Shown piece after piece: positions 10,112-58,044 of a stretch of 64,000 nucleotides of DNA. The position numbers and the translations under genes are program-made. Position 1 is the stretch's first letter; every line of letters begins with the position of its first letter. Under the pieces are notes generated by a model. It did not search any database. It worked only from the letters and a program-made list of their open reading frames with translations, and had not been told where the DNA came from. Source of the stretch: Eledone cirrhosa (Eukaryota); the NCBI GenBank assembly GCA_964016885.1, contig OZ024747.1, positions 35,030,001-35,094,000 on the forward strand, in the 5' to 3' direction.

Positions 10112-10151
<40 letters not shown>

Positions 10152-10153
<2 letters not shown>

Positions 10154-10406
10154 CAACCAGGTTTGATGGTCTTTATTCTCCCGTTCACGATTTCACCGAA
10201 CTTAAATTCATAGAAATCTGGGACTTGTCTCCTTCTTCCTCACTTTCTGTTGCTTCACCATTTTGTTTGTTTACCCTCGCGTCTCCTTTATTTACGTGTC
10301 CCAACGACATTTTTTAGCCGTTGCTCGCACCAACCGGAGGTATATGGTCTTTAAAGCGATGAACTGCCTATGATAGTTGGAAGATCACTGATGAAGGACA
10401 AACTTC

Positions 10407-10412
<6 letters not shown>
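10152..10412 (+). mobile_element. Family A non-coding unit (partial) with rearranged HHR at 10330-10412
   Basis: Near-identical to the reverse complement of 57296-57556. Flanked by (TA)n. GAAA is mutated to GAAC. Confidence 0.75.
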
Positions 10413-10456
<44 letters not shown>

Positions 10457-16814: not shown

Positions 16815-17793
16815 AATGGCGAGCTGTGTGGTTGCAATTAAGTATAATGAAAAATAAAAGTTACGGGCGAAAGAGGGGAATATTCATCATCAGTTGTCTC
16901 TCGCCAACACTGCTACAGTGAAGACGTGTCTTTTTTCTCTCGTCAAACCCGCCAGTTCTTACGTTCGAAATGAGTTGTTGACTTGATATTTTTCCTATTT
17001 TTCCTATTTTTCCGCTCTTTACGTTGCTTCACCCTTCGTGTCTGTTTATATGTCCACCCCGCCCCTTTTTATCCCAATAACTTATTTTAGTTGTTGTTCG
17101 TCCTAGGCTGAGGTATCTTGTCTCTAACGCGAAGAAATACCTATGATTCCTAACAGACAACTGACGATGGATATTCCCCTCTTTCGCCCGTAACTTTTAT
17201 TTTTCATTATACTTAATTGCAAACACCCAGCTTGCCATTCATATAAGCTTCCTTCTCCGCTGTGACACGTCTGTTTTCTCTCCCCTTGTTGCTATCCTCT
17301 CTCTCCCCCTTATCTCTCCTTCTCCCTCTTACTTTCGCTCACCCCTTCTGCTAGTCACATTCTCTCGGCAACCTGCCACTATAACTCTCTCTTTCTTGCT
17401 TCCTCTTACTTTCTCTCACTCCCTCTCTGCTAGTAACCCTCTCTCCGCTAGCTCACTACCTCCCTCGTACACCACATTAAGCAGTCTCTTCTCTCGTTAA
17501 CACGGCTACAGTGAAGACGTCTCTTTTTTCTCTCATCAAACTCGCCCATTCTTACTTTCGAAATGAATTCTTGACTTGATATTTTTCTTATTTTTCCTCT
17601 CTTTACGTTGCTTCACCCTTCGTGTCTGTTTACATGTTTTTCTACCCCAGCCCTTTTTTTATCCCAATAACTTATTTTAGTTATTGTTCGCCCTAGGCTG
17701 AGGTATCTTATCACTAACGCGAAGAAATACCTATGATTCCTAGCAGACAACTGGCGATGGATATTCCCCTTTCGCCCGTAACTTTTATTTTTC

Positions 17794-17797
<4 letters not shown>
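16815..17797 (+). mobile_element. Family B non-coding partial tandem (period 590) with 83-bp inverted 5' arm; rearranged HHRs at 17103-17187 and 17693-17776
   Basis: 16897-17210 is repeated at 17488-17797. 16817-16899 is the reverse complement of 17155-17238. Flanked by (TA)n. Confidence 0.8.
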
Positions 17798-17850
<53 letters not shown>

Positions 17851-27187: not shown

Positions 27188-27779
27188 CTCTTAGGTCAGT
27201 GTTGTTTGTTTGGGTGTTGTTGTTGTTCCACTCATTCTTTCTGTTTAGCTTTGGTCTTCTAATTTCTATTTCACTGGCCTCTCTGATTTGCCTATCTGCT
27301 GGGTCATTCCTATGTTTAGATATTATTCTAATTTCTATGTTGTATATGTTACCGTCATGTTGTTGTCTAGCATGTTCGTATAGTACTGACCCGTTTTTTT
27401 CGTCCTTTTAGTTCCCCCCAGTGTTGGTCTATCCTTTCACCTATGCTACGAGCTGTCTCACCTATGTATGTTGTTGTCATGTTTCTGCAAGTACCCTCTG
27501 TACATCTTATGCTATAGACTACGTTTCTAGTTTTACAGTTTATCCGGGGGTTCACCTTACAAATGATACATTTCCTATTGGTACAGTGGGTTTTCTTAAA
27601 AGGGTAGGTTTTGCTGATCAGGGATTTTATGGTGGTTCCTGGCTTTTCTACCACCTTTATTTTTAAGTGGGTCTTTCTCAGGGCCTTTCTACACTGGTTA
27701 GCTAATTTCCCTCCAGGGGTGGCGTCCACAAACATGACACTCTGTTATCTCTGGTTGTCGTACCATGATGTGACCTTCC
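27188..27779 (-). pseudogene. PLE linker and GIY-YIG endonuclease (frameshifted)
   Basis: MFVDATPGGKLA..CTNRKCIIC..NVVYSIRC..YIGETARSIGER. Confidence 0.9.
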
Positions 27780-28973
27780 CTATCTTATTCTAGCCCTATC
27801 TAAGCTATTCCATGATTTGCTCCTGTATAGTGGGCAAATTCCTTTCATGTCCAGTTCTATGAGGGTCTTATACTTTTCCATGGCTCCTTCGTATACTCTG
27901 ACTCTGTCTCTTTGGTTGTAGCCAGAGAACTGTCTGCGGTTGATGAAGTGTTGGATGTGTCCTTCCATTTCTGTTGGGTCGCACATGCTGGACACATTCT
28001 TCATCACTCGTACCAAATCTGCGATCAGAATATTAAACTTAGCACTACTGGACATTGCTGAGTTTTTGAGTATCAGGTATTTGGAGGCCATGGGTTTAGC
28101 ATAGTGTGAGTGGAGAATTTGGGCTCTCTCGTCTATAGTGTTAATCCAGAGTTCTGTGTCTAATACAGGTAGTCTATTGTTAGGGTGTTTGGAAGGGAAG
28201 TCTATAGTTACAGTTATACTCTGGTGTATGGAATTAGCTATCTGCTGGATGCTTTCCATCGTGCTACGTTCTAAATCAAACTTGTTAGTGCTCTCTAGTG
28301 GGGGTGTTCTTATAACTATATTGATATCGTCTACATAACGAGAGTACATGATGAGGTCTATGGAGCTTTCATTAAGGAGATCTTTAAGTCTCCTTTCCCA
28401 CCATACCATGAAAAGTTTGGCAACATCACCAGCTATGCTGACGCCGATGGCTGCTCCCTCATTTTGGGTGTAGATTTTCTCATTGAACTTAAATATGTGG
28501 CCCTTTAGGGTAGTTTTGATACTAGCCCCTATTGCATGTGCGACCATTTTTCTTACCTGATCAGTGTTTTGGGGGGTCCGTATAGCTTTGGTCCACCCAA
28601 TCCACCTTCCTATGGGAGTCTTTTTAGCCATTGAGGTTATGGTGGGGGGTCTACCTCTTATAGGTCTACTAGGGCAGAAACATCTAAGGTCATTGCTGTC
28701 TAGGTAGTCAGTGTCGTAGGTAAGTCTAAGTAGGAGGCCCAGTTCGTCTGTGTCGACGTCGCAGAACTCCACCTCACTCTCAATGATCATCTCCACACAT
28801 CTTTTCACAGCAAAATCAATGTTAATGGATGGGTACAGTGACACCACATCCATGCTGCCTATTATGCAGTTGGATAGGCTCCTGTTTTTGTTGCACTCAC
28901 TGATTCTGCTGAGGAGGTCCTCTGTACTTTCACATACATCTGGGGACATCTTGATTATGGGGCGTATAACCAT
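27780..28973 (-). CDS. PLE reverse transcriptase (397-aa open segment of a disrupted ORF)
   Basis: IGSMDVVSLYPSI, QNEGAAIGVSIAG, YSRYVDD, LPVLDTELW, HYAKPMAS. Confidence 0.92.
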   Translation of the reverse strand: MVIRPIIKMSPDVCESTEDLLSRISECNKNRSLSNCIIGSMDVVSLYPSINIDFAVKRCVEMIIESEVEFCDVDTDELGLLLRLTYDTDYLDSNDLRCFCPSRPIRGRPPTITSMAKKTPIGRWIGWTKAIRTPQNTDQVRKMVAHAIGASIKTTLKGHIFKFNEKIYTQNEGAAIGVSIAGDVAKLFMVWWERRLKDLLNESSIDLIMYSRYVDDINIVIRTPPLESTNKFDLERSTMESIQQIANSIHQSITVTIDFPSKHPNNRLPVLDTELWINTIDERAQILHSHYAKPMASKYLILKNSAMSSSAKFNILIADLVRVMKNVSSMCDPTEMEGHIQHFINRRQFSGYNQRDRVRVYEGAMEKYKTLIELDMKGICPLYRSKSWNSLDRARIR

Positions 28974-30152
28974 TGAGAGGAAGTAGGAGATCCTGTAGTT
29001 GCTAGCTATATTAGCTCCGCATACGGGTCTTGTTGGTGGTCCTGTTGTCGGGTCGTCGACTGTCTTGTGGGCTTTGCGGAGCCCATACAGGGTGGTATGC
29101 CATTGTTAGACGCCTGGAAGTTGTTGGCAGTGCGGCTGCTTGGCTTTAGGATGTCAGTCCACATCATCATGTGAGCGTTGAGGATTTTTTCTCTCCCATC
29201 GTGTGTTAGTTGTGCAACTTCGCTCGTGTTGGTGATGTGGGGTTGCATTGCCTCGATGTAGTTCGGCATGCTATCTATTGACGTACAGAGGGTACTTGCA
29301 GATGTACAGAGGGTACTTGCAGAAACATGACAACAACATACATAGGTGAGACAGCTCGTAGCATAGGTGAAAGGATAGACCAACACTGGGGGGAACTAAA
29401 AGGACGAAAAAACGGGTCAGTACTATACGAACATGCTAGACAACAACATGACGGTAACATAGACAACATAGAAATTAGAATAATATCTAAACATAGGAAT
29501 GACCCAGCAGATAGGCAAATCAGAGAGGCCAGTGAAATAGAAATTAGAAGACCAAAGCTAAACAGAAAGAATGAGTGGAACAACAACAACACCCAAACAA
29601 ACAATACTGACCTAAGAGAAGTATAAATAAGTAAATACAATTAAATAAAATAAGATAAATAAATACATACACAAGCACATAAACACACACTAGTCACTCA
29701 GCAGACACAACACTATACACACTAGTCACACATCACACATAACACTATACACACACGCAAACGCATGCGCAAAGAAGACAAAATAAAATAAGATAAACAA
29801 ACAAGCAAATAAATAAATAAATATATAGACAGACTGAACAAAAAAAAAAAATGGCGTAGACATACAACACAACAGGAGGAACAATGAATATAACACCACT
29901 GACGACGTTGCAGATGTGCAACGAAAGATTTATGTAAATTATGTAAACTACATATATGTGTTTGTGTCTATATTGTATCTGTATTATTTTTGACCGCCGG
30001 TCAGTCAATGGCAACATTGAGGACCGAGTAAGTTAGATCGCAGATATATATATATAAAAGACAGCGAGAAGCGAAAACCAACCAAACAGTGAGTGTGTTC
30101 TGTTATTAATTCTGGCAATATTACGCAAATATGACCCTCCCCAAATATAACA

Positions 30153-31685: not shown

Positions 31686-34600
31686 GAAAAAGTATGATCC
31701 CGACGGCAGAGCTCAAGCCGTTTCGAGGGCGATTTCTGGACTAAATTAGAATTGTTAGCCTGGTGAATAAATAGCCGTACTTGTCAAGAGGGTACTTCCT
31801 TATATGGGAAGATTGTAGTTGTCAAGAGGATTGGTTAAAATATGTTGTAAACACAAATAAGTCAATCATGGCATTTTGTTGGGAGGTAGGGGTGGCTGAA
31901 ATTGCCTGTAGAACAATAGGGGTGTGAGTGGAGCGGCCGAGCATTGAAGGTAATGTATATACAGCAGATTCTAAGGATAATGTATCAAGTCGAAGAGGGA
32001 GGTTATAGAATAGGTAAATCGAATGAGAGTAGGAGACAATAAAAGATAATAGAAAGAAATAAAAAAATATATAAAATTAGATAGTGAGAAATGAATAAGA
32101 AAATATCACAATGCTATCTTACAATTACAGGTTAATAAGTTAAGAATAGAAAAACACTTGTAGAATGAGTAGTAACAAAATTGATACAAAATTAAAGGGA
32201 TTTTAACACATCTGCTATAAGTAGTTAGTAAAACGTATTCGGCCAATTCTATATTAAAATTACAGGGATTGGGGAACTGATGCCAGAGAGACCCGATGGG
32301 CTGCATCGTGGTAGGCGAAAGGGGAAAAACAGACGAGGAGGGAGAAAGGGGGTGGAAGGAAGTGATAGGATGAGAGAGAGGGGAAAATAAGACAACCCTA
32401 TGCTCTCACCCTTCGAGAACGACCCTTTTCCACCTGGTCAAGAACATTAAATTCAAACCCAGACACAACAGATTCCTACACCAACTCCCTAACAAAATAA
32501 CAGAGTATGAAAACACCAACAATATCATGGTGCACTCGGACAAAACTGGAAACCTCTACTTCGTCAACCCTGACAGATACCACACACTGATCAGGGGCAG
32601 CCTAATCTCCCCCTATAAAAAGGCTAACCATTCAATTATCGAGGACATAAATCGAGATGGACAACAAATTACATCCAGCCTGGGTGTCGCCGACCGCACT
32701 GAACCTCTAGACCCACGGACCCCTTACTTCACACTGAAGGAGCATAAATCCGACGGACCGTAAACCATCCATGATCCGAAGTCGGACATAGGGAGAATCA
32801 GTAAAAAGATCCTAGACTGAGTTATACCAAAAGTTAAGCAAAACGTGAGTCTTAGCCTCTGGGTCAGCACCCAGGAAGTAATCTTATGGTTCAGGAACAT
32901 GGAGGTCAAACGAGACACACAATTCATCCAGTTTGACATAAAGAGTTGCAATGCATCTATTACCTTTGATTTTGCCGAAACACTCAAACCCATCACTGAG
33001 CAGGAAAGAAATATCATTCTCCACGCCAGGAAGACAGTCCTACTTTTCGACAACTCTAATTCGATAAAGAGAGCTCCCGATTCCCCCTTCGACGTCAGTA
33101 TAGGCGCGACGAATTCGGCCGAGGTCACAGATATTTAGAGGATTATTCCTACTATTTAAACTCACCAAAATGTTTCCTGCATTCGGCGATGGATTGTACC
33201 GGGATGATGAGCTCCTCACCCTCAAAGGGTACAACGCCAGTAATACAGACCGGGTCCGTAAACAACTAATCAACTTCTTCTGGGACTGGAGATTTAAAAT
33301 CACCCTACAAACGCCCCTAACCCGAGTCAATTTCCTGGACGTTACTCTTAACGTCGAAAATGATCTGTACTACCCATACAAGAAAACAAACGTCAACCTG
33401 CACTACATCCACCGCCGCTCTAACCATCCTAGAAACATCACCAATAACCTGGTTAAAAACATCTCCCTCTGCATATCTCGTTTGTCCGCTAATGAGCAGA
33501 TATTCGACGAACATGCGCCTCATTACAACCAGGCCCTCATGCGGAGTGGCTTCCGGGAGGAAATATCCTTTTATCCAGCTTCCATTAGCGGATCCAGCAG
33601 GCGACACCACCGCTCACGCAACGTATCGTGGTTCAATCCTCCCCATAATGCCGAGGTGGCAACACCTATCGGGAACATCTTATTTAGACTCCTCGAAAAA
33701 CACTTCCCACTACAACACCGCTACCACAACATAATCAACAAAAATACCATCAAACTCTCCTACAGCACCACACCTAACTTCGCACAAAACATCGTCTCCT
33801 CAAACAACGAAAAACTTAACCCCTATGGGAGAAATAACCTAGATATCAGTGGAGAGTCGACCAGGAGGTGTAAGTGCCCTGATAGATTTACGTTCCCGCT
33901 CAACACCAAATGCCGAGAACGTAACGTGATCTAGCAGTGCAACGTGAGGACGGACACTTCCAACAAAGCTTATATAGGATTAACCGCGTGTGACTTCAAG
34001 ATCCGGCTCTACCAACACCGACATACTTTTCAAAACCCGGTCCGGCGATATGCCACTACACTTTCGGGCCACATTTGGGACCTCCACGATAATAATATAA
34101 CCTACAATCTCACTCGGAGCTTACTGTCCAGAGCTAACTCTTACACGGGAGGACGCCGTCTGTGTAACCTATGCTCGGAGGAAACATTACAAATGATATT
34201 TTCGAAGGACCAACTCCTAAACAAGAAAGACGAACTGGTAACCGCATGCAAACAGATTTTGTAGGACTTACCTCGCCCTCAAACCCATAACGACCCGGGT
34301 GGGTAGACAAAGGTTGATAACCCCCCACTAGCCGAATAAGTTAGGGGAACCCCAACTTATATAGGTAGATGTATGTCTTTTTTTTCCCTTTGTATTCTTT
34401 TTCCCCCTGTCTCATCCTATCACTTCCTTCCACCCCTTATTTTCCTCCTCGTCTGCTTTCTCCTCTCGCCTTCACCGATGCAGCCCATCGGGTCTCTGTA
34501 GCATCAGTTTCCCCACCCCTGTAATTTTAAGATAGAATTGGCCGAATACGTTTTACTAACTACTTATAGCAGATGTGTTAAAATCCCTTTAATTTTGTAT

Positions 34601-38285: not shown

Positions 38286-38735
38286 TCACGGAGGTTTGAA
38301 TCTTATGAATTTAGTGGCTATTCTATGCCTGCAGAAGATAGATCTTTCTAACTTATTATTAAGTAGTCTTTTAACATTTCTAAGGATATACAATAGCTCA
38401 AGATCACACAGCCCGCAATAGGACATACCTGTACTATAGGTTTTAGCAGCCGACAACTTCGACCAGTTGATAGTGTAGCTAGCGTTGCTGTCCTTCAATT
38501 CCCATATTTTTCTGGCGAGGGTGGTGGAACCCATAAGAGCTCGGTTTTTCATCGAGTGCCTGTGCACATACCATCTTTTCTTAAAAGAACCCGCGGTGGA
38601 TCCTATGTAATTCCAAGTGGAGTTACCCGAGATGACAGTGCACATGTACACCAGACTCGAATCGAGACATCTATTCGCCAATGGGCACCTATCTGGTCTG
38701 GTGTACATGTGCACTGTCATCTCGGGTAACTCCAC
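38286..38735 (-). CDS. PLE GIY-YIG endonuclease fragment (left arm)
   Basis: RCPLANRCLDSSLVYMC..NYIGSTAGSFKKRWYVH..CGLCDLE..CRH. Confidence 0.85.
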   Translation of the reverse strand: MELPEMTVHMYTRPDRCPLANRCLDSSLVYMCTVISGNSTWNYIGSTAGSFKKRWYVHRHSMKNRALMGSTTLARKIWELKDSNASYTINWSKLSAAKTYSTGMSYCGLCDLELLYILRNVKRLLNNKLERSIFCRHRIATKFIRFKPP

Positions 38736-39066
38736 TTGGAATTACATAGGATCCACCGCGGGTTCTTTTAAGAAAAGATGGTATGTGCACAGGCACTCGA
38801 TGAAAAACCGAGCTCTTATGGGTTCCACCACCCTCGCCAGAAAAATATGGGAATTGAAGGACAGCAACGCTAGCTACACTATCAACTGGTCGAAGTTGTC
38901 GGCTGCTAAAACCTATAGTACAGGTATGTCCTATTGCGGGCTGTGTGATCTTGAGCTATTGTATATCCTTAGAAATGTTAAAAGACTACTTAATAATAAG
39001 TTAGAAAGATCTATCTTCTGCAGGCATAGAATAGCCACTAAATTCATAAGATTCAAATCTCCGTGA
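38617..39066 (+). CDS. PLE GIY-YIG endonuclease fragment (right arm, mirror ORF)
   Basis: Same peptide from LVYMC onward, differing at one residue near the C-terminus; the N-terminus is antisense-derived. Confidence 0.8.
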   Translation: MELPEMTVHMYTRLESRHLFANGHLSGLVYMCTVISGNSTWNYIGSTAGSFKKRWYVHRHSMKNRALMGSTTLARKIWELKDSNASYTINWSKLSAAKTYSTGMSYCGLCDLELLYILRNVKRLLNNKLERSIFCRHRIATKFIRFKSP

Positions 39067-40249: not shown

Positions 40250-42340
40250 AATAAATTTTGAAGACATAAATCCAAAGAGGGCTCGATAAGGATAAATATA
40301 TATCAAATATATAAGAACCGTAGAGCAAATATTTATTAAAATAACAGATTAAAGTTTAAGCAAAGAATCGCTGCTTTCACCCTTAACGGGATCTTCTGAA
40401 ACTAACAAAGTCAATCTGTAAACGCAGCAGTGGATATTTCAAAAAACGTTGCAACCGGAGGAAGACAGGAAGTCGATACTTTGGTTCGTGGAAACGTTCC
40501 CTGGCAAAGAACGGGAAAAAACGAATATAATACGTCATTAATAGGAGCGGTGAAAAACAATTATGCGCAAAGACAGAACCACGTTTATGGTATAAAAGAG
40601 GTCGTAGACTAATGTTCTCTTAGGTGGTTCATAGAGACGTTCTCTGGCAATGAACGAAAAATACGAAGATAATACGTCATATGTGGAGCGTGGAGAACAA
40701 TTGCACGCAAAGACAAAACCACGTAAAAGGTATAGCAGAAGTCGTAGACTAAAATTCTAACTAGGAGACCGAATGAATCTCTGCTTCAGAGTTAAGAACA
40801 AAGTAAATTAATACAATACAGAAGTAATATAAATTAAATAAATACATACACGCATACAAATACGTACATACACAAGCATACGCGAAAACACTTACCATAG
40901 GTATACAAAACCACGCACATATAAATATGTGTCTGTGTGTATGCGTGTATACAAATAAATAAATAATTAAATAAACGTATATAAATAAATAAATACGTAT
41001 ATAACAAGCGCACACACATACCTACATGTAAATACACAAATGTTCGGAGACGTAAGTCAACCAAAACATGAAGTACACATATACACACACCCTACATACG
41101 TACAAACCTGCACACTCACACAGACGCAAAACTCCCGTATACACATAACCAAACCATATGTACCAGAATGTATAAAATTATACGCAATAACATATACGAT
41201 CAAATATACGTACGAGAAGGTATACGCACCTTCACAAAACATACAGGCAATATATACTTACCTATGCAAATAAGTAATGGTATAAACGAAACATATACTT
41301 AGCTACCACATCAAGACGTAAAATATACACGTATAGATCGTACTATCCGTTAGGGTATAACGTGGGGCTGTAATGCAGGAAATTTTTGTGCAATTTATGT
41401 TTACAAGCCGAAATTGCCTCAGACTTTTTGTTTAAGATGTGGTCTGTGGTGTAGAGTATTTCCAGGGCCTCAGCGGCGCAGAGGTCACATGGTCTTTTAT
41501 TTACGTTATACGATCTAGCCCCAGCTAGGATCTCCCAGTGTTACTTATATTGGGTGTGGTTGTCTTTTAGACTCCAGATATAAGCTGAAAGTGACGTCAT
41601 ATTCCCTCTTAGAGGGTAACGAAAAGAATGGGTATGCATGTAAAGACGCTGCTTGAATCTATTGGTGGTTAACCCTATGTAGGCCCTACGGGACGTGGGT
41701 GTTTCAACCTTACATTTGTAGACAATGTTACTAGAGAGGCATTTCCCGGATAGCGGGCAATCAGCCCGATTCCTACAATTACAGGTAGTACTAACTACAG
41801 GGTTGCACGTGTTCCTACGGCTAGGTAGTTTAGCTAAATTTGAAGCTGTGATGTTATGTGCAAGGTTAGGAGTCGTAGAGTAAGACATTTTAATAGTATT
41901 TCTATTAAAAGTTTTACTATATTTATGTGTAGGGGGAAAATGCTTCGTAATAAGGGAAAGAAAGATCTTAGATAATGGTGTGGCCACCTCCATAGTATAT
42001 GGTGGGTCATACCAACAAATGCGACGGGATCTATTTCTTCTAGGTCTATTTTCGTACTCTGTATATGCTACCTTATCGACAAATCCACTCCGAGCAAGAG
42101 CTTCATTGTAATAAGTGGAATGGTCGTTGAAAATATGCTCGTTAGTAGATAGACGGGAAAGCCTCAACGAAACGTTTCTTACCAGGTTCTTGGTTATACT
42201 GGCAGGATGGTTGGAATGCTTACTTATGTAATTAAGCGTATCATTCGGCTTTCTATACGGGTAATACCACACATTCAATAAATTGAGGGTAACGTCGAGG
42301 TAATTAACGACCGAGAGATTAGCCTCAACCTGTATTCTAC
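40250..42340 (-). mobile_element. 5'-truncated PLE (Naiad-like): RT thumb and GIY-YIG (41345-42340), 3' UTR, HHR at 40353-40403
   Basis: VNYLDVTL, YPYRKPN, SNHP, WYDPP, CNCRNRADCPLSGKC, YIGLTTNRFKQR; CDLCAAE follows the stop. Confidence 0.92.
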
Positions 42341-44128
42341 TTCTATGTATCCATGTATTTCTACTCCTCCTACTGAGACTTTTGCTCACTTCTACCCATT
42401 AGCACACGACACTAGAATGTCTCCCCCTGAGAACAAAAATAAATATTACCCGACTATATCCCTTACTCTACATACCACTAGGATAACTTATAGAACATCT
42501 ACATAATACAATTAACGTTTCTTCATAAAAGACTCTCTTTAACTAAACCCCGCAACCCAAAACCTTAAAACAGTTTTTTAAATGTTTAATTTTCAATTTT
42601 CTATTTGTTCAATTCTCAATCTTCTTACTCTTTAATTTTATGATGTTATTCTGAATTCTTTCAACTTCATCCTATAAATGTAAACAATATTTTAACGTTC
42701 CAACTTTCTGTCAGACTGTTGGATTGGTTTTCATGGCGGCGGGACCGGCCCCCTGGCGCATAGGCCTACCTTGAGTGCTTGGAAAAATAAATTTCCCCTT
42801 CTTTCGGTAAATGAAACTACTCGGAGTGGCTTGATTCACCCCAGGGGCCCGGCATGCAGCCGGTTTTTTAACCGCCATATAGTACCTTTAAATTACAGAT
42901 CAAATCAGAACTATTAGATATATCACGCCTCCCTTTACTTAAGCAAATCCCCCTCCTGGGTAAAGGAATATTACTGGTTTTGTACAAAAATGGCCTAACG
43001 ATGCGGGCTGACTTCCTGCTGGCGCACCTGAAGCCTGTTATACATTCCTAGAGTGCTCGTTAAAATCGATGTCCATATCTTTCGCTAGGCGATATCACTC
43101 GGAGTGATGGGCTGCTCAAGCTTGTAGTCGCCGCATGCTGTTTGACGGCTAAACAAAGACATAATCTTTACTCTATAATAAAATTTAAGTGTCTTCATAA
43201 AAAACTCTTTCTTTGCTTAAACCTCACAACCTTAAACATGTTAAACTATTTAACTTTAAATTTTCTAATTTCTTTAATTTTATAATGTTAATATTAAATA
43301 TTAATTTTTTAACTTCATCCTATAAGTCTAAACAAAAATGTAACGTTCCAATCTTCTGCTCACACATTGACCCCCACTATATTGACCTCTGCTAAGATAC
43401 GGGTCCCTTTGAAAATATTTTGTTCGCGCCATTCCTGGCCTGACTATAGTCTGACATTAATATCGACCTTCCTCCCTCTTTCTTTCTATCTTTCTTCTTG
43501 TAGCCATCAACCCTGACTTTCTGCTTCTTCCTTTTCTGCCTTCTCTTCTCCCTTATTTCTGTTTTTCTCCTTGTGGCATGATATTAACGCTGACTTATCT
43601 TACTTCCCCTTTTTCTTTGCCTATATTTGACCGGTAGTAGTTGTTAAGATACGTGTCCCATAGAATAAAAAGAATTTCGCGACATTCCCGGCCTGACTGT
43701 AATACCGACCTTTCCTCCTCTTTCTTTCTGTCTTTCTTCTTATAGCTGACATTAACCTGGCTTCTCTTCTTCTTCCTTCCCCCTTCTTCTCTCTTCTTTC
43801 TTTCTTTCTTTCTTTTTTTTTTTGTGGCATGATATTAACGCTAACTTATGTTCCTATCCCTTTCTGTTTTCCTTTATTTGACCGGTAGTAGCACACTATA
43901 AGCTTTAGCCACGTCACTCCAGGGCGACCGGCAAATGTAGAAGATGCTGGATGGCGGTCGTCCTCGGGTCTCTGATTTTCAGCCCCATGGATTTTATCTA
44001 TTACATTCGCTTATTATATTTCGGATACCTGATGATATCACCGGATTCATACGTAACCCCGTCATTGAAATGATCATAGTATAATAAACCTTTCAAGGAT
44101 TTACACAAATCCAACCTCCTGTCATTTC
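42341..44128 (+). mobile_element. Family C non-coding element (second copy) ending in a complete HHR
   Basis: Homologous to ~12700-14015. Internal ~250-bp tandem duplication at 43394-43890. Confidence 0.7.
44025..44082 (+). ncRNA. Type I HHR of family C
   Basis: atac-CTGATGA-(31 nt)-GAAA-tgatca-TA-gtat; palindromic helix III. Confidence 0.7.
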
Positions 44129-47070: not shown

Positions 47071-47081
47071 TATATATATAT

Positions 47082-47205
47082 ACGTGTCCCAACGACTTTC
47101 TTTAGGCGTTGCTCACACCAACCGGAGGTATATGGTCTTTAAAGCGAAGAAATACCGATGATGGTTGGAAGATCACTGATGAAGGACCACTTTATTCATA
47201 TGTAT
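47082..47205 (+). mobile_element. Family A fragment with core-intact rearranged HHR at 47118-47199
   Basis: ccaacc gg aggtaTA tggtctt taaagcgaa GAAAtacc gatgat ggttgg aagatca CTGATGA. Confidence 0.75.
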
Positions 47206-48419: not shown

Positions 48420-51268
48420 ACCTTTCCAAGAGCAAATAGTTTTGTCCATAATGCCAAAACAGAATGCAGGGAGACTTTGCTTCTGCTGTCCGCACTGCAA
48501 AGGTTATCGCTGGCCACATTAACCCAAATCTCTGTGCTGCTTCCAGGGTAAAGTGAAACTCCCTCAACTTCCTCCTCTCCACCAAATATACTGAAATATT
48601 TCGATATGACTCAAGCAGGAAATTATTTTATAACAATGTACTTGCCTTAGCATCAATTGGTTGCAAAGAGAATAAAGCACCAGGATTTATTCCCACATTA
48701 ATATTCCGCGTAAGATTTGACATATTATTGGATCACTATTTCCAAGCAATGCTTCACCCAAGATTGCGCAGCTTTACTTCTATGATACAGATCACGAGCT
48801 TCAGAATCGCTTGCATCATGCTAATTTAGATGCTTCTGTCCTGCAGGACCTCCGAGCAGACTTACACTACTGCAACACCTATATAAGAAGCTTCAAGGCA
48901 ATCATTGAAATGCCAGTCTCTGAAAATGTGAATATTGTCCTACATGCTGACAAAGTAAAACCCACTGATTTTCATTGTCGCACATATACTTTTCCCATTG
49001 TATCTGAGATTGCTGTTATTCAACCTGATACAGCATTAGGTTTCTTGAATGTCATCATCCATAAAAGAGATGGTGGTATTCAGAGGATTCATCAGTTGCA
49101 CCATTCATATGATCCACTGCATTATGTGCTACTGTCTCCTTGGGGGAATGATGGGTTTCAGGTTGGTTTGTAAAGGATTGACAACAACCACACACGCACA
49201 CCAATTTATTTCTACTGTTATCGGTTTCAGGTTAGGTAAGGTTACTGTAACATAATCATGAAGAGCAGCGGCTGATTCAGCAATATGCTGTAGATGCCCA
49301 GGCAAAAATAGAACATTGTCGCCTCAAATGGTCCCGCAACAATCAAACCATGATACGAGCTGAACAGTATGAGAGTTTGTATGGTGCTGTGGCTGAAGGA
49401 GATTCAGTAAATGCAGGCCGGAGATTTGTTCTTCCTCCTTCAATCTATGGTTCCCCTCACTTCTACAGTGAGTGCTTTCACAATTCGATGACTGTGGTTC
49501 GACACATGGGAAAGCCCTCTTATTTCATCACAGTAACCACTAAACCTAACTGGGATGACATAAAAACTAGTTTGATGAAGAACCTAGAGACCGTCTCGAT
49601 ATTTATACAAGATCAAGTATGGCAGCCACATGGATGACATACTGAAAAAGAAAATGTCCTAGGAAAGGCTGTGGCTCATCCTGCTACAATAGAGTGGCAG
49701 AAACGAGGCCTCACTCATGCTCATATTCTGCTGATAATGGCTGAAGATAGCAAGCCCAAAACTTCTGATCCCATTGACCCGGTAGTCTACTGTGAGATTC
49801 CTGATAAAGAGACCAATCCAATTCTGCATAAGATCAACACATCCTGCAACATTCATGGCCCCTGCGGACAAGCTAATATGATGTGCTCACGTATGGAAGG
49901 GCTAGGACAACAACGCGATTGCTCAAAAGGTTATCCTAAGGCATTCAGACAAACCACATTTGTTGCCGAAAATTCCTTTCCGGAGTTTAGAAGGAGGGAT
50001 AGACAGTATGGTGGTCACACCCATACAATCCACCTTAAAGGTCAATAATTTACTGTTGATAATCGTTGGATTGTTCCATACAAACCTTTCCTCATATTGA
50101 GACAGCCGATGACTAAGTTGACGGAATATTTTCAACTGAATATTAGAGACCCACCGGCACAAAACATATTGTTTATTCCTTACTATTTCATTTGGACAAA
50201 CACAAATTCGTAAAGAAAAAAAAGAGACATATGGATGGTGATCAACAATTTATGAGTGAATCTCTTGGACGCATTCCAACAGTATCTCTCAGTAGATATC
50301 AATCTGAATTATATTATCCCAGTTTGATCCTATATCACAAGATTGGGTCAACTTCATACAAATATTTGAGGACAATTGAAGGTGTTGAATTTCCAACACT
50401 CCAAGAAGCATGCAGGAAACTTTGTTTGTTGGATGAAGATGGAGAAAAAGACAAAACTATGAAAGAGGACTCATCCATTTAGCTTGGACCTCAGGTGCGA
50501 GAAATCTTCTGCACCATTTTATTGTACAGCATGCCAAATGACCCTCTGAAGTTCTGGGAGAAATGGAAGAATTGCCTTGCAGAGGATATCATGCAATAAC
50601 GTATTGAGCAGGTCATGCAAACCTTGCAGATTGTTCTACAGAAGATCCAACAAAGACTTCAACATGATGGCTTGGACATTCATGCCAACTATGGACTTGC
50701 TCGGCCATATCGAACTATTGTTGCCATACCAGAAATCAACAGGGTTCTTATGGCAGAAACTGATTTCAATAAACACCAACTGCACGCAAACATAAATGAA
50801 CTTCCGACAATATTGAATCCTGAGCAACTAGTTATTTTTCTGAAAGTAATCACCTCTGTAAATGAACATGAAGGCAGAATTTTCTGCTTGAATGCAAGTG
50901 CAGTCGCAGGAAAGACCTATGTCATAAACATCCTATTGGATTACCTCCGATCTAAAAAGAATTGCACTTGCTACTGCCGTATCTGAAATAGCAGCCACTT
51001 TGCTTCACAAAGGTAGAACTCTTCATTCCAAGTGCAAGATTCCTCTCAATGTGACTGCTGAATCAACTTGCTTCTTCACAAAAAGGGATGCCACGTGTAA
51101 ACTTATGCAGCAAGCTGAACTGCTAATCATTGATGAGATAGGTATGGGATATAAGCAAATCTTTGAAAGCCTTGACAGGAGCTTCAAAGATGTTCGAGAT
51201 TGCAAAAGGCTATTTGGTGGTCTAACAGTATTACTATCTGGTGACTGGAAGCAAAATCTTCCAGTTGG
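48420..51268 (+). pseudogene. Helitron RepHel pseudogene (Rep HUH and PIF1-like helicase)
   Basis: AQLYFYD, YDPLHYVLL, YFITVT, IEWQKRGLTHAHILL, DNRWIVPY, AGKTY, LLIIDE, FGGLTVLLSGDWKQNLPV; many stops and frameshifts. Confidence 0.95.
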
Positions 51269-51955
51269 TATGAGTGACACCACTCGCGAGATCGCTGCAT
51301 CTGTTTTTGATTTGCGCGATCTCGTTCGTGATGTATCCTCTTTTGGCACTGTTAGGGAGGGCGGACTTGTAGTGAACGAATAGGTCCCTGCAGGCTGCCT
51401 TTCGGTAGAAGTTGCAGTGGATCCTTCCCTGTTCCGTGATGTTGATTCGGAAGTCGAGGAGGGCAAGTGACCTGTCTTCGTTGGAGTGTTCAACACTGAA
51501 CTCAATGTTCTCGTCCGTGTTGTTGAACGTCTCATAGATTCTGTTCGCCGTGTCTTGGGAAGGTGTGAGGATGAGAATATCGTCCACGTACCTTGAGAAA
51601 AAGGCTACGGCGTTGGGGTGGCAGGCGTTGAGTGCCTTGCGTTCGAGGTTGTCCATGTAAGAGATCGCTAGCACACCTGATAGGCTTGATCCCATGGGCA
51701 ATACCGAGGTTTGTTGGTATATTTGGTCAAGGAATCCGAAGTAGGTGTTGTCGACGACGATGGATAGGAGTTGGTGGATGTCAGTGGTGGTGAGCCCGAA
51801 GCAGTGTAGGTCGGTGGATTGGACGCGTTCCATTAGTATATTGACGGCCGGGAGTGCCGGGACCGAGGTGTAGAGAGCGACTACATCAAGGCTGAAGGCA
51901 TATCTGTTATTCCTTCTGGTGTCGGGATCCATTTGATGCAGGCGCTTCAACACCT
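51269..51955 (-). pseudogene. PLE reverse transcriptase core fragment
   Basis: FSLDVVALYTSV, LPMGSSLSG, FSRYVDDIL, LALLD, FYRK..HYKSALP. Confidence 0.9.
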
Positions 51956-52007
51956 CCTATATATATATATGTATGTGTGTTTGTATGCAAGCACAGACAC
52001 AATCAGC

Positions 52008-54440: not shown

Positions 54441-57068
54441 CAGGTACTCCTCATTTAACGATCTACCCGTTTAACTATCTCTCGGAGTTACGAACATCTT
54501 CACGAATTACATATATTAGTTTAACAAAAATCTCTCGAAATTACGTCAATAATATATTCGCTCAACGACAATATCTCGCAGTTACGATCCGCAGAGAATA
54601 GTGACAGCACAGTTGTGAGTGAAAGTGAACGCAGTTGTGTACGGTAAGTTGGGCTGAGGCAACCGGCAGTGCTGAGCAGCCTCCAGCTCATCACCTTTCG
54701 CAGCTTCATTCGCGTCTATCCACTGAACACAAGAAGTTACCAAGTATTTTTTCGTTTCGATACCGTTACATCCCTCAAGATGTCAGCAAAAATAACCAGT
54801 ACTACACCAGGACCTTATCACAAGAAGTCAAAGAAATCCATTGATATAGAAACAAAGCTGAAGATCATCAAACAATATGAAGAAGGAGGTTAAAGTGAAC
54901 GCAATTGCTGCTAGAATGAACTTGGTAAGTTCTACTATATCTACCATCCTCAAGGACAAAGAAGTAGTGAAGGAGACGGCCAAGAACACAACGGGATACA
55001 ATGCTTTGATAACAAGACAGCGAAAAGGCCTGATACATGAAATGGTGAAATTGTTGGCCATGTGGTTTGATGACCAAATAGCCAAACGAATGCCAATGAG
55101 TCTTCATATTATTCAAAGCAAGGCGCGCAGCATCTTCGAGAATCTCAAGTCACGTGAGGGAGACGAGTGTACTGAAACGTTTACAGCAAGCCACGGTTGG
55201 TTCCAGCAATTTCGTCGTCGATTTAATTTGCACAACCGTTGTATTACTGGTGAAGCAACAAGTGTTGATACGGAAGCAGCAAAAACATTTCTCGATGTTT
55301 TAGACAAGATTGTCGAGGAAGGAGACTATCGCCCGGAACAAATTTTCAGTGTCGACGAAACTGGTCTCTTTTTGAAAAAAAATGCCTGAAAGAATGTATC
55401 TTCACAAAGAGGCTAAAAATATGCCCGGCTTCAAGGATCGAGTGACGTTGCTTTTAGGCGGAAATGTTGCGGGGCGTAAGATGAAACCATTTTTCATTTA
55501 TCGTTCCCAAACCCCACGTGCATTAAAGAACGTGAACAAACTCACGCTGCTAGTGTTTTATCGGGCAAACAACAAGGCATGGATGACGCAATCTTCGAGG
55601 ACTGATTCATCAACTGCTTTATACCTGCAGCCAGGGAATACTGCCTTGAAAACAACATTCCCTTCAAGATTCTACTTCTCCTGGATAATGCTCCCGGCCA
55701 GCCCCCCAACATATTTATGACCTGCATCCTAATGTTAAAGTAGTGTATCTGCCCCAAAATACGACGTCAATTCTTCAACCAATGGACCAGGGGGTGATAT
55801 CTACTTTCAAGGCGTATTATTTACGAACTACTTTTGCACAGGCAGTAACACCAACGGAGGATGACGTAATGGATCATCGTGAATTTTGGAAAGATTTTAA
55901 TATTGTCAACTGCATCAAGAACATCAACGGAGCCTGGCGGGATGTGAGTGAAAAATGTATGAAAGGTGTATAGAAGAAATGCTTGAAAAGGTTTGTTAAT
56001 AATTTTGAAGGTTTTGATAAAAATTCAGATTTTGAAGTGATAAGTAATAAAATAGTTGTTCTTGCTCAAAAGTTGCGGTTGGAAGTGCATGCGCAAGATG
56101 TGGAAAATTTAGTGAACTTTGTTGAAGGAGAGTTGACTGACGAAAATGTAATAGAGTTGGAAGAGCAGCGACATAGAGAAGAGTTGGAAGAAGCAGCAGA
56201 ACAACCATATGAGGAACAGACAAATTCACTGTTAAGGGCTTGGCGGAAGTATTCACGCATATGAGTAAGACGATGTCAGGATTGGAGGCAATGTATGCTA
56301 ACATTGAACGCTTGGCAACATTTAAAAGACATTTGGAAGATAGACTACGTTGCTATCGTGAAATTTATGATGAGAAAAAAAAGCAAACAAAACAGTCATC
56401 TATGCTGAGCTTTCTGGTGAAAACTCCGACTCCAACCCCACATACATACCAAATATCTGTAGTACTGTAATATGATGTGTATTGTGCAAATAGCATATCA
56501 TACAAGAGAGAAAATAAAAAGATAACATGAAAAATATATTGCCGAGTGTTAAAGAGAGAAGCTATTCGGTGCCAATAAGGTAGCCTAGCCTAGGTTTGAA
56601 AACCTTGAAATCCACAGCTAAAACAAGAAGTAAGGCATTAATATACTTTATAAAGAAAAGCTATAGTGCTATGTATAACATACGATTTAAAGTTAAAGAT
56701 ATCAGTCAAAATAAAGAAACAATATATTCAGAATCATTCTGAACGTATATGACAAATGTTGGCCGAGCGAAAGGTTATTCAGTGTGCATAATATAGCCTA
56801 GCTTAAGTTTGAAAATCTTGAAATCCACAGCTAAAACAAAAAATAAGACTACTGTACAGTAATATACTTTATAAAGAAAAGCTATAATTATGTGTATATG
56901 ATTTTAAGTTAAAAACTATTAATCGAAATAAAGAAACAATATCAAGAATATATACTGTACTGTACAGGCCTATATGCCCAATGTCGGCAGAAAATCACTC
57001 GTTTAACGGTCATTTCGCTTGACAAACGGGTCATTGGAACGTAACCCGTTCGTTAAACGAGGAGTATT

Positions 57069-57256: not shown

Positions 57257-57981
57257 TGATAATAAGGGCGCTGCGGAGTTGCAAATGGATTACATATGAA
57301 ACAAGTTTGTCCTTCATCAGTGATCTTCCAACTATCATAGGCATTTCATCGCTTTAAAAACCATATACCTCCGGTTGGTGCGAGCAACGGCTAAAAAAAG
57401 TCGTTGGGACACGTAAATAAAGGGGACGCAAGGGTAAACAAACAAAATGGTGAGGCAACAGAAAGTGAGGAAGAAGGAGACAAGTCCCAGATTTCTATGA
57501 ATTTAAGTTCGGTGAAATCGTGAACGAGAGAATAAAGACCATCAAACCTGGTTGAAATGTGAGCAAGGAAGGAATTTCGCACAGGTCTAACGGGAGGAAG
57601 AAGGGGTCTGGTCTGCGAATTCGGTAAACATAAGTTCTGTGAAATCGTAGACGAGAGAGAAAAAATTCCGACCAGCTTGGCCGAGAATGTGAGAGAAAAG
57701 AGTTACTCACAGGTCAAACGGGAAGAAAGAGGAGGAGGAGGATAGGTAGTGACAGAGAATGAGTGAGTGAAGGGTGAGGTGAGGAAGAGGCTAACAGAGA
57801 GAGAGACTGCTAGAAAGGGTAAAGATACATAGAACGAAAAAGACGGTGTAGCAGCAGAGGAAAAAATATGTGTAAATATGATAATAAGGGCGCTGCGGAG
57901 TTGCAAATGGGTTACATATGAAAAAAATTGTCCTTCATCAGTGATCTTCCAACTATCATAGGCATTTCATCGCTTTAAAAA

Positions 57982-57984
<3 letters not shown>
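57257..57984 (-). mobile_element. Family A element: 621-nt unit plus 107-nt terminal redundancy; rearranged HHR at 57296-57378
   Basis: 57257-57363 is repeated at 57878-57984. Non-coding, with (TA)n on both sides. Confidence 0.85.

Positions 57985-58044
<60 letters not shown>

What the first reader, a model, noticed from the sequence alone, without database searches (positions are those of the whole stretch)
47118..47199. Hammerhead with reversed (non-circularly permuted) strand order, supported by cross-family covariation
Seen: family A (10330, 47118, and 57378 on minus) reads ccaac-cgg-aggtaTA|tggtctt-taaagcga(a/t)-GAAAt(a/g)cct-atgat-a-gttgg-aagatca-CTGATGA. Family B (17103, 17693) aligns without gaps: ctagg-ctg-aggtaTC|ttgtctc-taacgcgaa-GAAAtacct-atgat-t-cctag-cagacaa-CTGACGA. 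Three helices are kept. Helix III is aggtaT/Atacct. Helix I is tggtctt/aagatca versus ttgtct/agacaa (compensatory). An extra helix is ccaac/gttgg versus ctagg/cctag (four of five pairs changed, all compensatory). The cleavage triplet stays NUH (AUA vs AUC). Established: types I-III all keep the cyclic order CUGANGA -> GAAA -> NUH. Here the order is NUH -> GAAA -> CUGANGA, which requires a multi-pseudoknot fold or multimer assembly. Inference: helix II is weak (gcgaa/ttcgc in B, after a 13-15 nt insert). From memory, natural non-circularly permuted HHRs have been reported, so novelty of this family must be checked.
Basis: partly seen in the sequence, partly recalled or inferred. Interest (0 to 1): 0.93.

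Follow-up and report, generated by a model that had tools for sequence, protein, structure and literature searches.

The report
Scrambled hammerhead ribozyme in animal retroelements
A self-cutting "hammerhead" RNA motif whose parts come in a scrambled order, so far known only from environmental RNA, sits in many thousands of copies of a jumping repeat in this animal genome and, by eye, in published Naiad retrotransposons that were thought to lack one, but cutting has not yet been shown.

Summary
The motif is real: cut site, then GAAA, then CUGANGA, the "type-SGC" order of Eckert et al. 2023, who found it only in metatranscriptomes. Here it has about 17,000 genomic copies (36 for the reversed pattern) in non-coding 470-790-nt partial tandems inserted in (TA)n like Penelope-type elements. 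Stems I and III and the extra helix covary. The stem III extension carries a kink-turn consensus. Over 21 copies, 92% of cells pair and 19 of 35 pairs change on both sides. Read by eye, 9 of 54 published Naiad consensus 3' UTRs (four phyla), reported to lack canonical hammerheads, show the same fold. Not shown: cleavage, expression, the mobilising element. The 47118 copy itself has a mismatch in one helix and may be weak. Verdict: new variant of a known kind, high interest.

The parts
47077..47204 (+). 5'-truncated insertion holding little more than the ribozyme, preceded by (TA)n
   Evidence: boundaries -56 and about +72 from the cut
47086..47089 (+). Helix P0, 5' strand (GUCC); pairs with 47184-47187
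   Evidence: helix 1: 95% of cells paired, one pair G-C 16 / A-U 4; helix 1
47090..47111 (+). Hairpin Ph, second arm of the four-way junction
   Evidence: helix 2: 94% paired, 4 of 7 pairs change on both sides
47113..47116 (+). Helix Px, 5' strand (UCGC in the subfamily, UCAC in this copy); structural stem II; pairs with 47144-47147
   Evidence: helix 3 (87% paired, 2 double changes), helix 3 (98% paired)
47118..47123 (+).
   Evidence: helix 4: 5 of 6 pairs change on both sides
47124..47126 (+). Non-bulged strand of the predicted kink-turn (3n, G2n, A1n)
   Evidence: (GA in 20 of 21)
47127..47132 (+). Block S: stem III 5' strand, U16.1 and H17; predicted cut after 47132
   Evidence: helix 5
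47133..47139 (+). Stem I, 5' strand; pairs with 47169-47175
   Evidence: helix 6: 5 of 7 pairs change on both sides
47140..47148 (+). UAA linker, Px 3' strand (47144-47147) and position 11.1 (47148)
47149..47156 (+). Block G: G12 A13 A14 A15.1 and stem III 3' strand
47157..47168 (+). Three-nucleotide bulge, G1b A2b, then 3' strand of the stem III extension
   Evidence: (bulge plus GA in 21 of 21)
47169..47182 (+). Stem I 3' strand and CUGAUGA (47176-47182)
47183..47187 (+). Nucleotide after A9 (47183) and P0 3' strand (GGAC)
10150..10417 (+). Related copy, H17 at 10344; A15.1 changed to C, probably dead
16897..17799 (+). Family B partial tandem (590-nt spacing), H17 at 17117 and 17707; second copy has core and stem I lesions
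16815..16899 (-). Inverted fragment of the family B 3' end, joined to the 5' end of the tandem
57291..57988 (-). Partial tandem (about 621-nt spacing): intact copy with H17 at 57364, and an upstream copy that begins within 4 nt of the predicted cut, after (TA)n

Best explanation
A type-SGC hammerhead ribozyme with a split stem II, carried by non-autonomous Penelope-type (retrozyme-like) repeats and probably inherited from the 3' UTR of Naiad elements. Fold (supported by covariation): the standard core sits between stem I, stem III and helix Px; the strand after CUGANGA does not pair with the strand before GAAA but with a separate upstream strand (P0), and P0, hairpin Ph, Px and the core meet in a four-way junction. 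Stem III continues through a bend (kink-turn consensus in the window's clade, a plain bulge in others) so that its far end can reach the far ends of stem I and Px (inferred geometry). Function (inferred): tandem or read-through transcripts are cut after H17 into unit-length RNAs whose two ends stay paired through four helices, which would favour circularisation; a Penelope-type reverse transcriptase/GIY-YIG protein acting in trans copies them into (TA)n, leaving 5'-truncated, tandem and inverted copies. Shown: sequence, copy number, covariation, insertion anatomy. Inferred: cleavage, the kink, circles, the helper, Naiad ancestry. My odds: fold 0.9; cleavage by intact subfamilies 0.8; efficient cleavage by the 47118 copy itself 0.4.
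For: Copy number against reversed controls: 16,939 vs 36, 14,513 vs 0, second clade 987 vs 0. Clade 1, 21 copies at 59-97% identity: 92.4% of 735 cells paired, 19 of 35 pairs with double changes, 0 of 500 shuffles as high on three of four change/pairing measures plus the covariation score (further pair types not significant, 249/500), slid controls 28-46% paired. Clade 2, 11 copies with different helix sequences and a unit that BLAST barely links to clade 1: 88.8% paired, slid controls 43-49%. Ten of 11 core columns invariant against 25 of 102 other columns; N7 and H17 vary only within allowed letters (partly circular, see against). With the core left free, about 90 of the 100 listed matches keep it and the lesions are scattered (counted by eye). 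Same fold read by eye in Naiad-3_Chem, _Amil, _Aacu, _Anas, -2_Movir, _Plae, _EuTe, _Obim, _Ovul (PMC8557442 File S5). Type-SGC RNAs cleave in vitro at 0.007-0.19 per min (PMC10085705). Insertion anatomy: (TA)n within 110 nt of the core in 119 of 155 copies and 470-791-nt spacing in 28 of 37 same-strand pairs; two fixed 3' ends about 50 nt apart in 44 of 46 alignments and scattered 5' ends; these match the PLE features in PMC8557442. Weak hint of cutting in vivo: 8 of 225 copies have their 5' end within 4 nt of the cut, about three times the density nearby.
Against: No cleavage or expression data. Clade 1 lacks the canonical G10.1-C11.1 pair (11.1 is A or U in 20 of 21), and the 47118 subfamily has A opposite A there. 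The 47118 copy has a mismatch in Px (duplex -0.7 against -6.1 kcal/mol in L005). The nested minimum-energy fold is no better than shuffles (z -0.68) and contains a competing 5-bp hairpin that would hide G12. Px and P0 vary little within each clade (2 and 1 double changes; 0 and 2), so their support rests on comparison between clades and with Naiads. Most aligned copies were collected with patterns that fix the core, so core invariance is partly circular; copies are related, so shuffles overstate significance. The Naiad readings are by eye, not computed. No ORF is attached to the repeats; Naiad-like RT in G000 was found only as 4 broken remnants with no SGC motif beside them, while the repeats are young. 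Of the 8 ends near the cut, 3 adjoin (TA)n where microhomology could explain them.
Confidence: 0.75

Rival explanations
1. The fold is real but kept as a binding site for the helper reverse transcriptase or a host protein (for example Snu13/15.5K at the kink-turn); clade 1 no longer cuts, and the inserted copies come from uncut tandem transcripts.
For: Insertions run through the cut site at both ends, which uncut precursors would explain directly; clade 1 lost G10.1-C11.1; 8 of 9 Xenopus retrozymes did not cut in vitro (bioRxiv 10.64898/2026.07.22.740005); PLE hammerheads are often slow (PMC4209133).
Against: Catalytic letters are kept across subfamilies and clades while helices turn over; circular templates also give insertions that span the cut; slight excess of 5' ends at the cut.
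Confidence: 0.15
2. An ordinary SGC core with a one-pair stem II (post-A9 nucleotide or the following G with 11.1); P0, Ph and Px are peripheral or alternative helices, not a four-way junction at the core.
For: In clade 1 the post-A9 nucleotide and 11.1 form a standard pair in 16 of 21 copies with four pair types (helix 7); PLE hammerheads usually have an extra nucleotide before G10.1 (PMC4209133), a register that clade 2 also allows.
Against: In Naiad_EuTe, _Plae and _Amil no G follows CUGANGA, and both strands pair with upstream partners right up to the core (by eye); in clade 2 the post-A9 nucleotide covaries with an upstream base (11 of 11 paired).
Confidence: 0.07
3. The core assembles in trans between two repeat units, as dimeric type I PLE hammerheads do.
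For: Units occur in partial tandems; dimer activity is established for metazoan type I motifs (PMC4209133).
Against: Stem III is a stable 5-bp helix with an extension, not a short palindrome; all partners are within 105 nt; monomeric SGC RNAs cleave (PMC10085705).
Confidence: 0.03

Closest known systems
Type-SGC hammerhead ribozymes (HRIMA-1 and variant), Eckert et al. 2023, PMC10085705 (main text parts 1-6 of 8, supplement parts 1 and 8 and one search read; figures and the HRIMA-1 alignment not seen)
   Same: Block order S-G-C, complete core, short linker from stem I to the stem II strand, a fourth helix that ties the arms together.
   Different: Found there only in metatranscriptomes (583 sequences; none in genomes of known organisms); stem II there is one helix whose 3' strand follows CUGANGA, and the extra helix joins the strands beyond stems I and II. 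Here stem II is split into a four-way junction by an upstream strand, which breaks their assumption that block C cannot be interrupted; their descriptor (CUGAUGA(U)G, CGAAA, contiguous stem II) would miss it.
Naiad Penelope-like elements, Craig et al. 2021, PMC8557442 (passages; supplement parts 1, 9, 12, 19 and six searches read)
   Same: (TA)n targets, 5' truncation, partial tandems, inverted 5' copies, 3' tail; by eye the same ribozyme fold in 9 of 54 Naiad consensus 3' UTRs, the two octopus ones with the kink-turn and the same hairpin loop as clade 1.
   Different: The paper reports no canonical hammerhead in Naiads (only 'core' or 'half core' flags). The repeats here encode no protein and no intact Naiad was found in G000.
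Animal non-LTR retrozymes, Cervera and de la Pena 2020, PMC7229834 (passages); Li, Clavereau and Pollet 2026, bioRxiv 10.64898/2026.07.22.740005 (parts 1-3 of 5; supplements not seen)
   Same: Non-coding tandem units under 50% GC with one hammerhead per unit, thousands of copies, co-occurring with PLEs.
   Different: All described ones carry type I hammerheads; these carry an SGC motif, in longer units (470-790 nt), mostly as truncated monomers and dimers.
Kink-turn (PMC5061560 search listing; PMC4382518 abstract)
   Same: [quoted passage not shown]
   Different: Inside a hammerhead stem III, for which my searches found no report; 3b.3n varies (U.G, C.U, U.U, A.A, C.A), so some subfamilies may need a protein to kink; clade 2 uses plain bulges instead.

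Membership tests
Hammerhead ribozyme | Core letters CUGANGA, GAAA and NUH | tested here: met
   47118, 57378 and 17103 copies intact, 10330 and 17693 copies not
Hammerhead ribozyme | Stems I and III flanking the cut | tested here: met
   helices 5 and 6; helices 4 and 5
Hammerhead ribozyme | Stem II as one helix opened by G10.1-C11.1 directly after A9 | tested here: not met
   0-1 direct pairs in all 34 cluster representatives; replaced by Px and P0; in clade 2 C11.1 can pair with an upstream G (11 of 11)
Hammerhead ribozyme | Site-specific self-cleavage | not testable with these tools
   needs in vitro assay; only a weak hint from 5' ends
Type-SGC (HRIMA-1) | Block order S, G, C | tested here: met
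Type-SGC (HRIMA-1) | About 3-nt linker from stem I to the stem II strand | tested here: met
   UAA invariant in 21 of 21
Type-SGC (HRIMA-1) | Uninterrupted block C and an extra helix between the strands beyond stems I and II | tested here: not met
Non-LTR retrozyme | Non-coding tandem unit, under 50% GC, one ribozyme per unit | tested here: met
   41-46% GC in four units
Non-LTR retrozyme | Type I hammerhead | tested here: not met
   SGC order; an ordinary type I family also exists in G000 (L141-L159)
Non-LTR retrozyme | Expressed as linear and circular monomer RNA | not testable with these tools
   no RNA holder listed
Non-autonomous Penelope-like element | (TA)n target, 5' truncation, partial tandems, inverted 5' copies, 3' tail | tested here: met
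Non-autonomous Naiad derivative | 3' sequence shared with an autonomous Naiad in the same genome | tested here: inconclusive
   only broken Naiad-like RT remnants, no link; resemblance to published cephalopod Naiad UTRs is by eye
Kink-turn | 3-nt bulge then G.A and A.G between two helices | tested here: met
   20 of 21; about 92 of 100 listed matches with these positions left free (by eye); one subfamily has U at 2n
Kink-turn | Kinked conformation or L7Ae-family binding | not testable with these tools
   needs FRET, gel or binding assay

The most novel reading that the evidence does not exclude
The hammerhead reported missing from Naiad retrotransposons is there in a form no descriptor could see: a non-circular permutation whose stem II is broken into a four-way junction, with G10.1 supplied by a distant strand, a rearrangement outside the six published block orders. 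It is old (cnidarians, an acanthocephalan, a crustacean, cephalopods), active, and has spawned SGC retrozymes with at least 17,000 copies in one animal genome, some using a kink-turn to close the fold.
Probability: 0.65. Interest if true: 0.92.

Novelty: new variant of a known kind. Interest (0 to 1): 0.86.

Why it matters
Non-circular permutations of RNA were known from a few hundred environmental sequences and were thought rare; this would make them an abundant part of animal genomes with a defined biological setting. It offers a direct answer to the open point in PMC8557442 that Naiads thrive without hammerheads, and removes the argument drawn from it that hammerheads may merely parasitise Penelope-like elements. 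The split stem II shows that the hammerhead core tolerates a fourth break, and the bend in stem III suggests how the topology closes, a question left open in PMC10085705. Each claim can be tested with 110-nt transcripts, and a new descriptor should uncover ribozymes in repeats now annotated as having none.

Tried and rejected
Rfam: no ribozyme among 146 matches at E up to 5, nearly all microsatellite noise. A clade 1 pattern in metagenome contigs: 0 matches. A loose G-block/C-block pattern in viral contigs, used as a false-positive control: 1 weak fit among the 80 loci examined of 121. Expression: no RNA holder listed; three runs of unknown kind from one sample, contigs only, were uninformative. 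Autonomous carrier: none of 30 GIY-YIG loci or 20 long-ORF PLE loci has an SGC motif as its own 3' end; several have type I motifs, and the SGC copies seen there lie kilobases from the ORF or belong to the known repeat subfamilies. Naiad RT motif patterns: 0 hits twice, 4 hits with mismatches, all broken. An apparent link between a Naiad remnant and family G was an unrelated short inverted-repeat element. The family first seen as TCCTCGC... is an ordinary type I hammerhead. One search was one base short and sampled mainly one subfamily. Naiads where I did not see the fold: Naiad-1 and -2_Chem, _Ppla (read in full or at the 3' end), nematode entries (CUGANGA before GAAA), bivalve and Darwinula entries (no fit among the places listed; not read in full); four more show S-G-C order with a different or degenerate periphery (two entries in the spider part of the file, names not confirmed; _Esco; _Bfor). 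The supplement searches miss motifs split across lines and I saw only places 5-18 for CTGAGGA and CTGAAGA. A larger test of 5' ends at the cut in clade 2 could not be run, so that point stays a hint. Literature: no report of genomic or retroelement SGC motifs, of a four-way junction at stem II or of a kink-turn in a PLE hammerhead or in term searches of PMC13725137, PMC10162972, PMC7936874 and PMC6765202; subscription journals are not covered.

Full report
Observation. The window holds five full copies of the motif and one truncated one. Each reads cut site (NUH), GAAA, CUGANGA in that order. A descriptor for this order with stems I and III gave 4 hits in the window and 0-1 in each of 30 shuffles. 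The window lies in a 3.0-Gb animal-type genome, G000. An exact pattern matched 8409+8530 places against 20+16 for the reversed pattern; one that leaves the internal-loop letters free matched 14,513 against 0.

What is known. Eckert et al. 2023 (PMC10085705) named this order type SGC, showed cleavage at the predicted site with mutant controls, and found all 583 examples in metatranscriptomes, none in genomes of known organisms. So the order is known; the setting and the rest of the fold are not in what I could search.

The fold. Comparing subfamilies showed that the strand before GAAA pairs with a strand just upstream of the ccaac helix (Px), and the strand after CUGANGA pairs with a strand about 45 nt upstream of the cut (P0); a hairpin (Ph) lies between them. 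I aligned 21 clade 1 copies, picked by hand from the clusters of 132 distinct hits plus window copies, and counted seven helices: 92.4% of 735 cells pair, 19 of 35 pairs change on both sides, no shuffle of 500 reaches these values, and slid structures give 28-46%. The count of further pair types was not above shuffles (249/500), and relatedness inflates such tests. A second clade (987 matches against 0, some overlapping) has different sequences in every helix and the same arrangement: 88.8% paired over 11 copies, slid 43-49%, though only 4 pairs with double changes (38/500). The type I hammerheads of ordinary PLEs in G000 also often show a mismatch at this place, and a U.U there is described in an axolotl retrozyme (PMC7229834), so it need not be lethal.

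The bend. The internal loop between stem III and the ccaac/gttgg helix fits the kink-turn consensus (three-nucleotide bulge, then G.A and A.G; definition from the listing of PMC5061560): 20 of 21 aligned copies and about 92 of 100 listed matches when those letters were free (by eye). The 47118 subfamily has G at 3n, the type that folds in metal ions alone (PMC4382518 abstract). Clade 2 has plain bulges instead, one family with a 6-nt linker. Stem III stacks on stem II and points away from stem I (PMC4209133), yet here its far end joins stem I with no linker; a sharp bend would allow that. This geometry is inference, not a model.

The carrier. The motif lies near the 3' end of non-coding, pyrimidine-rich units. 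Spacing is 470-791 nt in 28 of 37 same-strand pairs (overlapping loci included), and 119 of 155 copies have (TA)n within 110 nt downstream. In the 47118 subfamily 3' ends fall at about +70 or +110 to +126 from the cut in 44 of 46 alignments (ten of these are tandem copies where the reference ended), 5' ends are scattered, and inverted 5' pieces are common. These are the marks of Penelope-like insertion. Top copies are 95-99% identical, so spread is recent. G000 is rich in PLEs (10,596 GIY-YIG candidates, 150 scored); some of the 20 long-ORF loci examined have RT followed by GIY-YIG and carry type I hammerheads.

The Naiad link. Craig et al. 2021 (PMC8557442) report that Naiads target (TA)n and lack canonical hammerheads, with some 'half cores'. 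Reading their consensus file by eye, I found the S-G-C order with stems I and III, P0, Ph, Px and a bulged stem III extension in 9 of 54 entries: Naiad-3_Chem, _Amil, _Aacu, _Anas, -2_Movir (Cnidaria), _Plae (Acanthocephala), _EuTe (Crustacea), _Obim and _Ovul (Cephalopoda). The three Acropora and the two octopus entries are near-identical, so this is six independent sequences. In Naiad_EuTe the junction is perfect: GGGG/CCCC, an 8-bp hairpin, GACGCC/GGCGUC. In all nine the Px strand offers a G opposite C11.1, and in _EuTe, _Plae and _Amil no G follows CUGANGA, so G10.1 must come from upstream. The octopus motifs have the kink-turn and the same 8-nt hairpin loop as clade 1, and a small old G000 family (18 matches against 0) resembles them closely. 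I did not read the whole file; misses are listed under Tried and rejected. These sequences were not run through any tool. In G000 itself Naiad-like RT was found only as four broken remnants with no ribozyme beside them, so the present helper is unknown: either a Naiad my patterns missed or another (TA)n-targeting PLE.

Mechanism. Most likely the ribozyme cuts tandem transcripts into monomers. After the cut the 3' end of a monomer (P0, Ph, Px, extension and stem III 5' strands) stays paired to its 5' end through four helices, a good substrate for ligation; RtcB circularises animal retrozyme monomers in vitro (PMC7229834). Copying round a circle, or from an uncut precursor, gives insertions that span the cut at both ends, as seen. 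Eight of 225 copies begin within 4 nt of the cut against 26 over the 54 neighbouring positions (some of the latter are gap artefacts, three of the eight adjoin (TA)n); this is only a hint. No RNA data were available.

Against. No activity data; weak nested folding energy and a competing hairpin; a Px mismatch in the focal copy; partial circularity of the core test, eased but not removed; low variation in P0 and Px within clades.

Verdict. Works like a hammerhead; shares the order of type SGC but fails its stem II feature; fits retrozymes except for the ribozyme type. New variant of a known kind, interest 0.86.

Noticed in passing
L141-L159 (G000:C1, e.g. 22658255): A separate high-copy non-coding tandem family (about 540-nt unit) with an ordinary type I hammerhead: long stem II, C.A at its base, palindromic stem III.
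   Followed up: partly
window 176, 947, and minus strand 785: Type I hammerhead motifs of PLE type; the 785/947 pair lies in a 171-nt inverted repeat.
   Followed up: no
window 27367-29105, 32374-33934, 38286-39066, 41541-42398, 51234-51956: Fragments of Penelope-like RT and GIY-YIG reading frames, several inside long inverted repeats.
   Followed up: no
window 48721-51383: Broken reading frames that look like a Helitron Rep/helicase (recalled resemblance, no family search run).
   Followed up: no
window 54862-55389: 175-aa frame resembling a pogo/Tigger CENP-B-type transposase piece (recalled resemblance).
   Followed up: no
L191-L208: Old family G: SGC motif with kink-turn and P0/Px but apparently no hairpin Ph, CUGAGGA core, resembling cephalopod Naiad UTRs.
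   Followed up: partly
L384-L387: Four broken Naiad-like RT remnants, 73-84% identical to each other.
   Followed up: partly
PMC8557442 File S5, parts 16-17: Two entries in the spider part show S-G-C order with long stems I and III but a different periphery: possibly a further SGC architecture (by eye).
   Followed up: no
PMC8557442 File S5, nematode Naiads: These have CUGANGA before GAAAC with long inserts, so ribozyme topology appears to differ among Naiad subclades.
   Followed up: no
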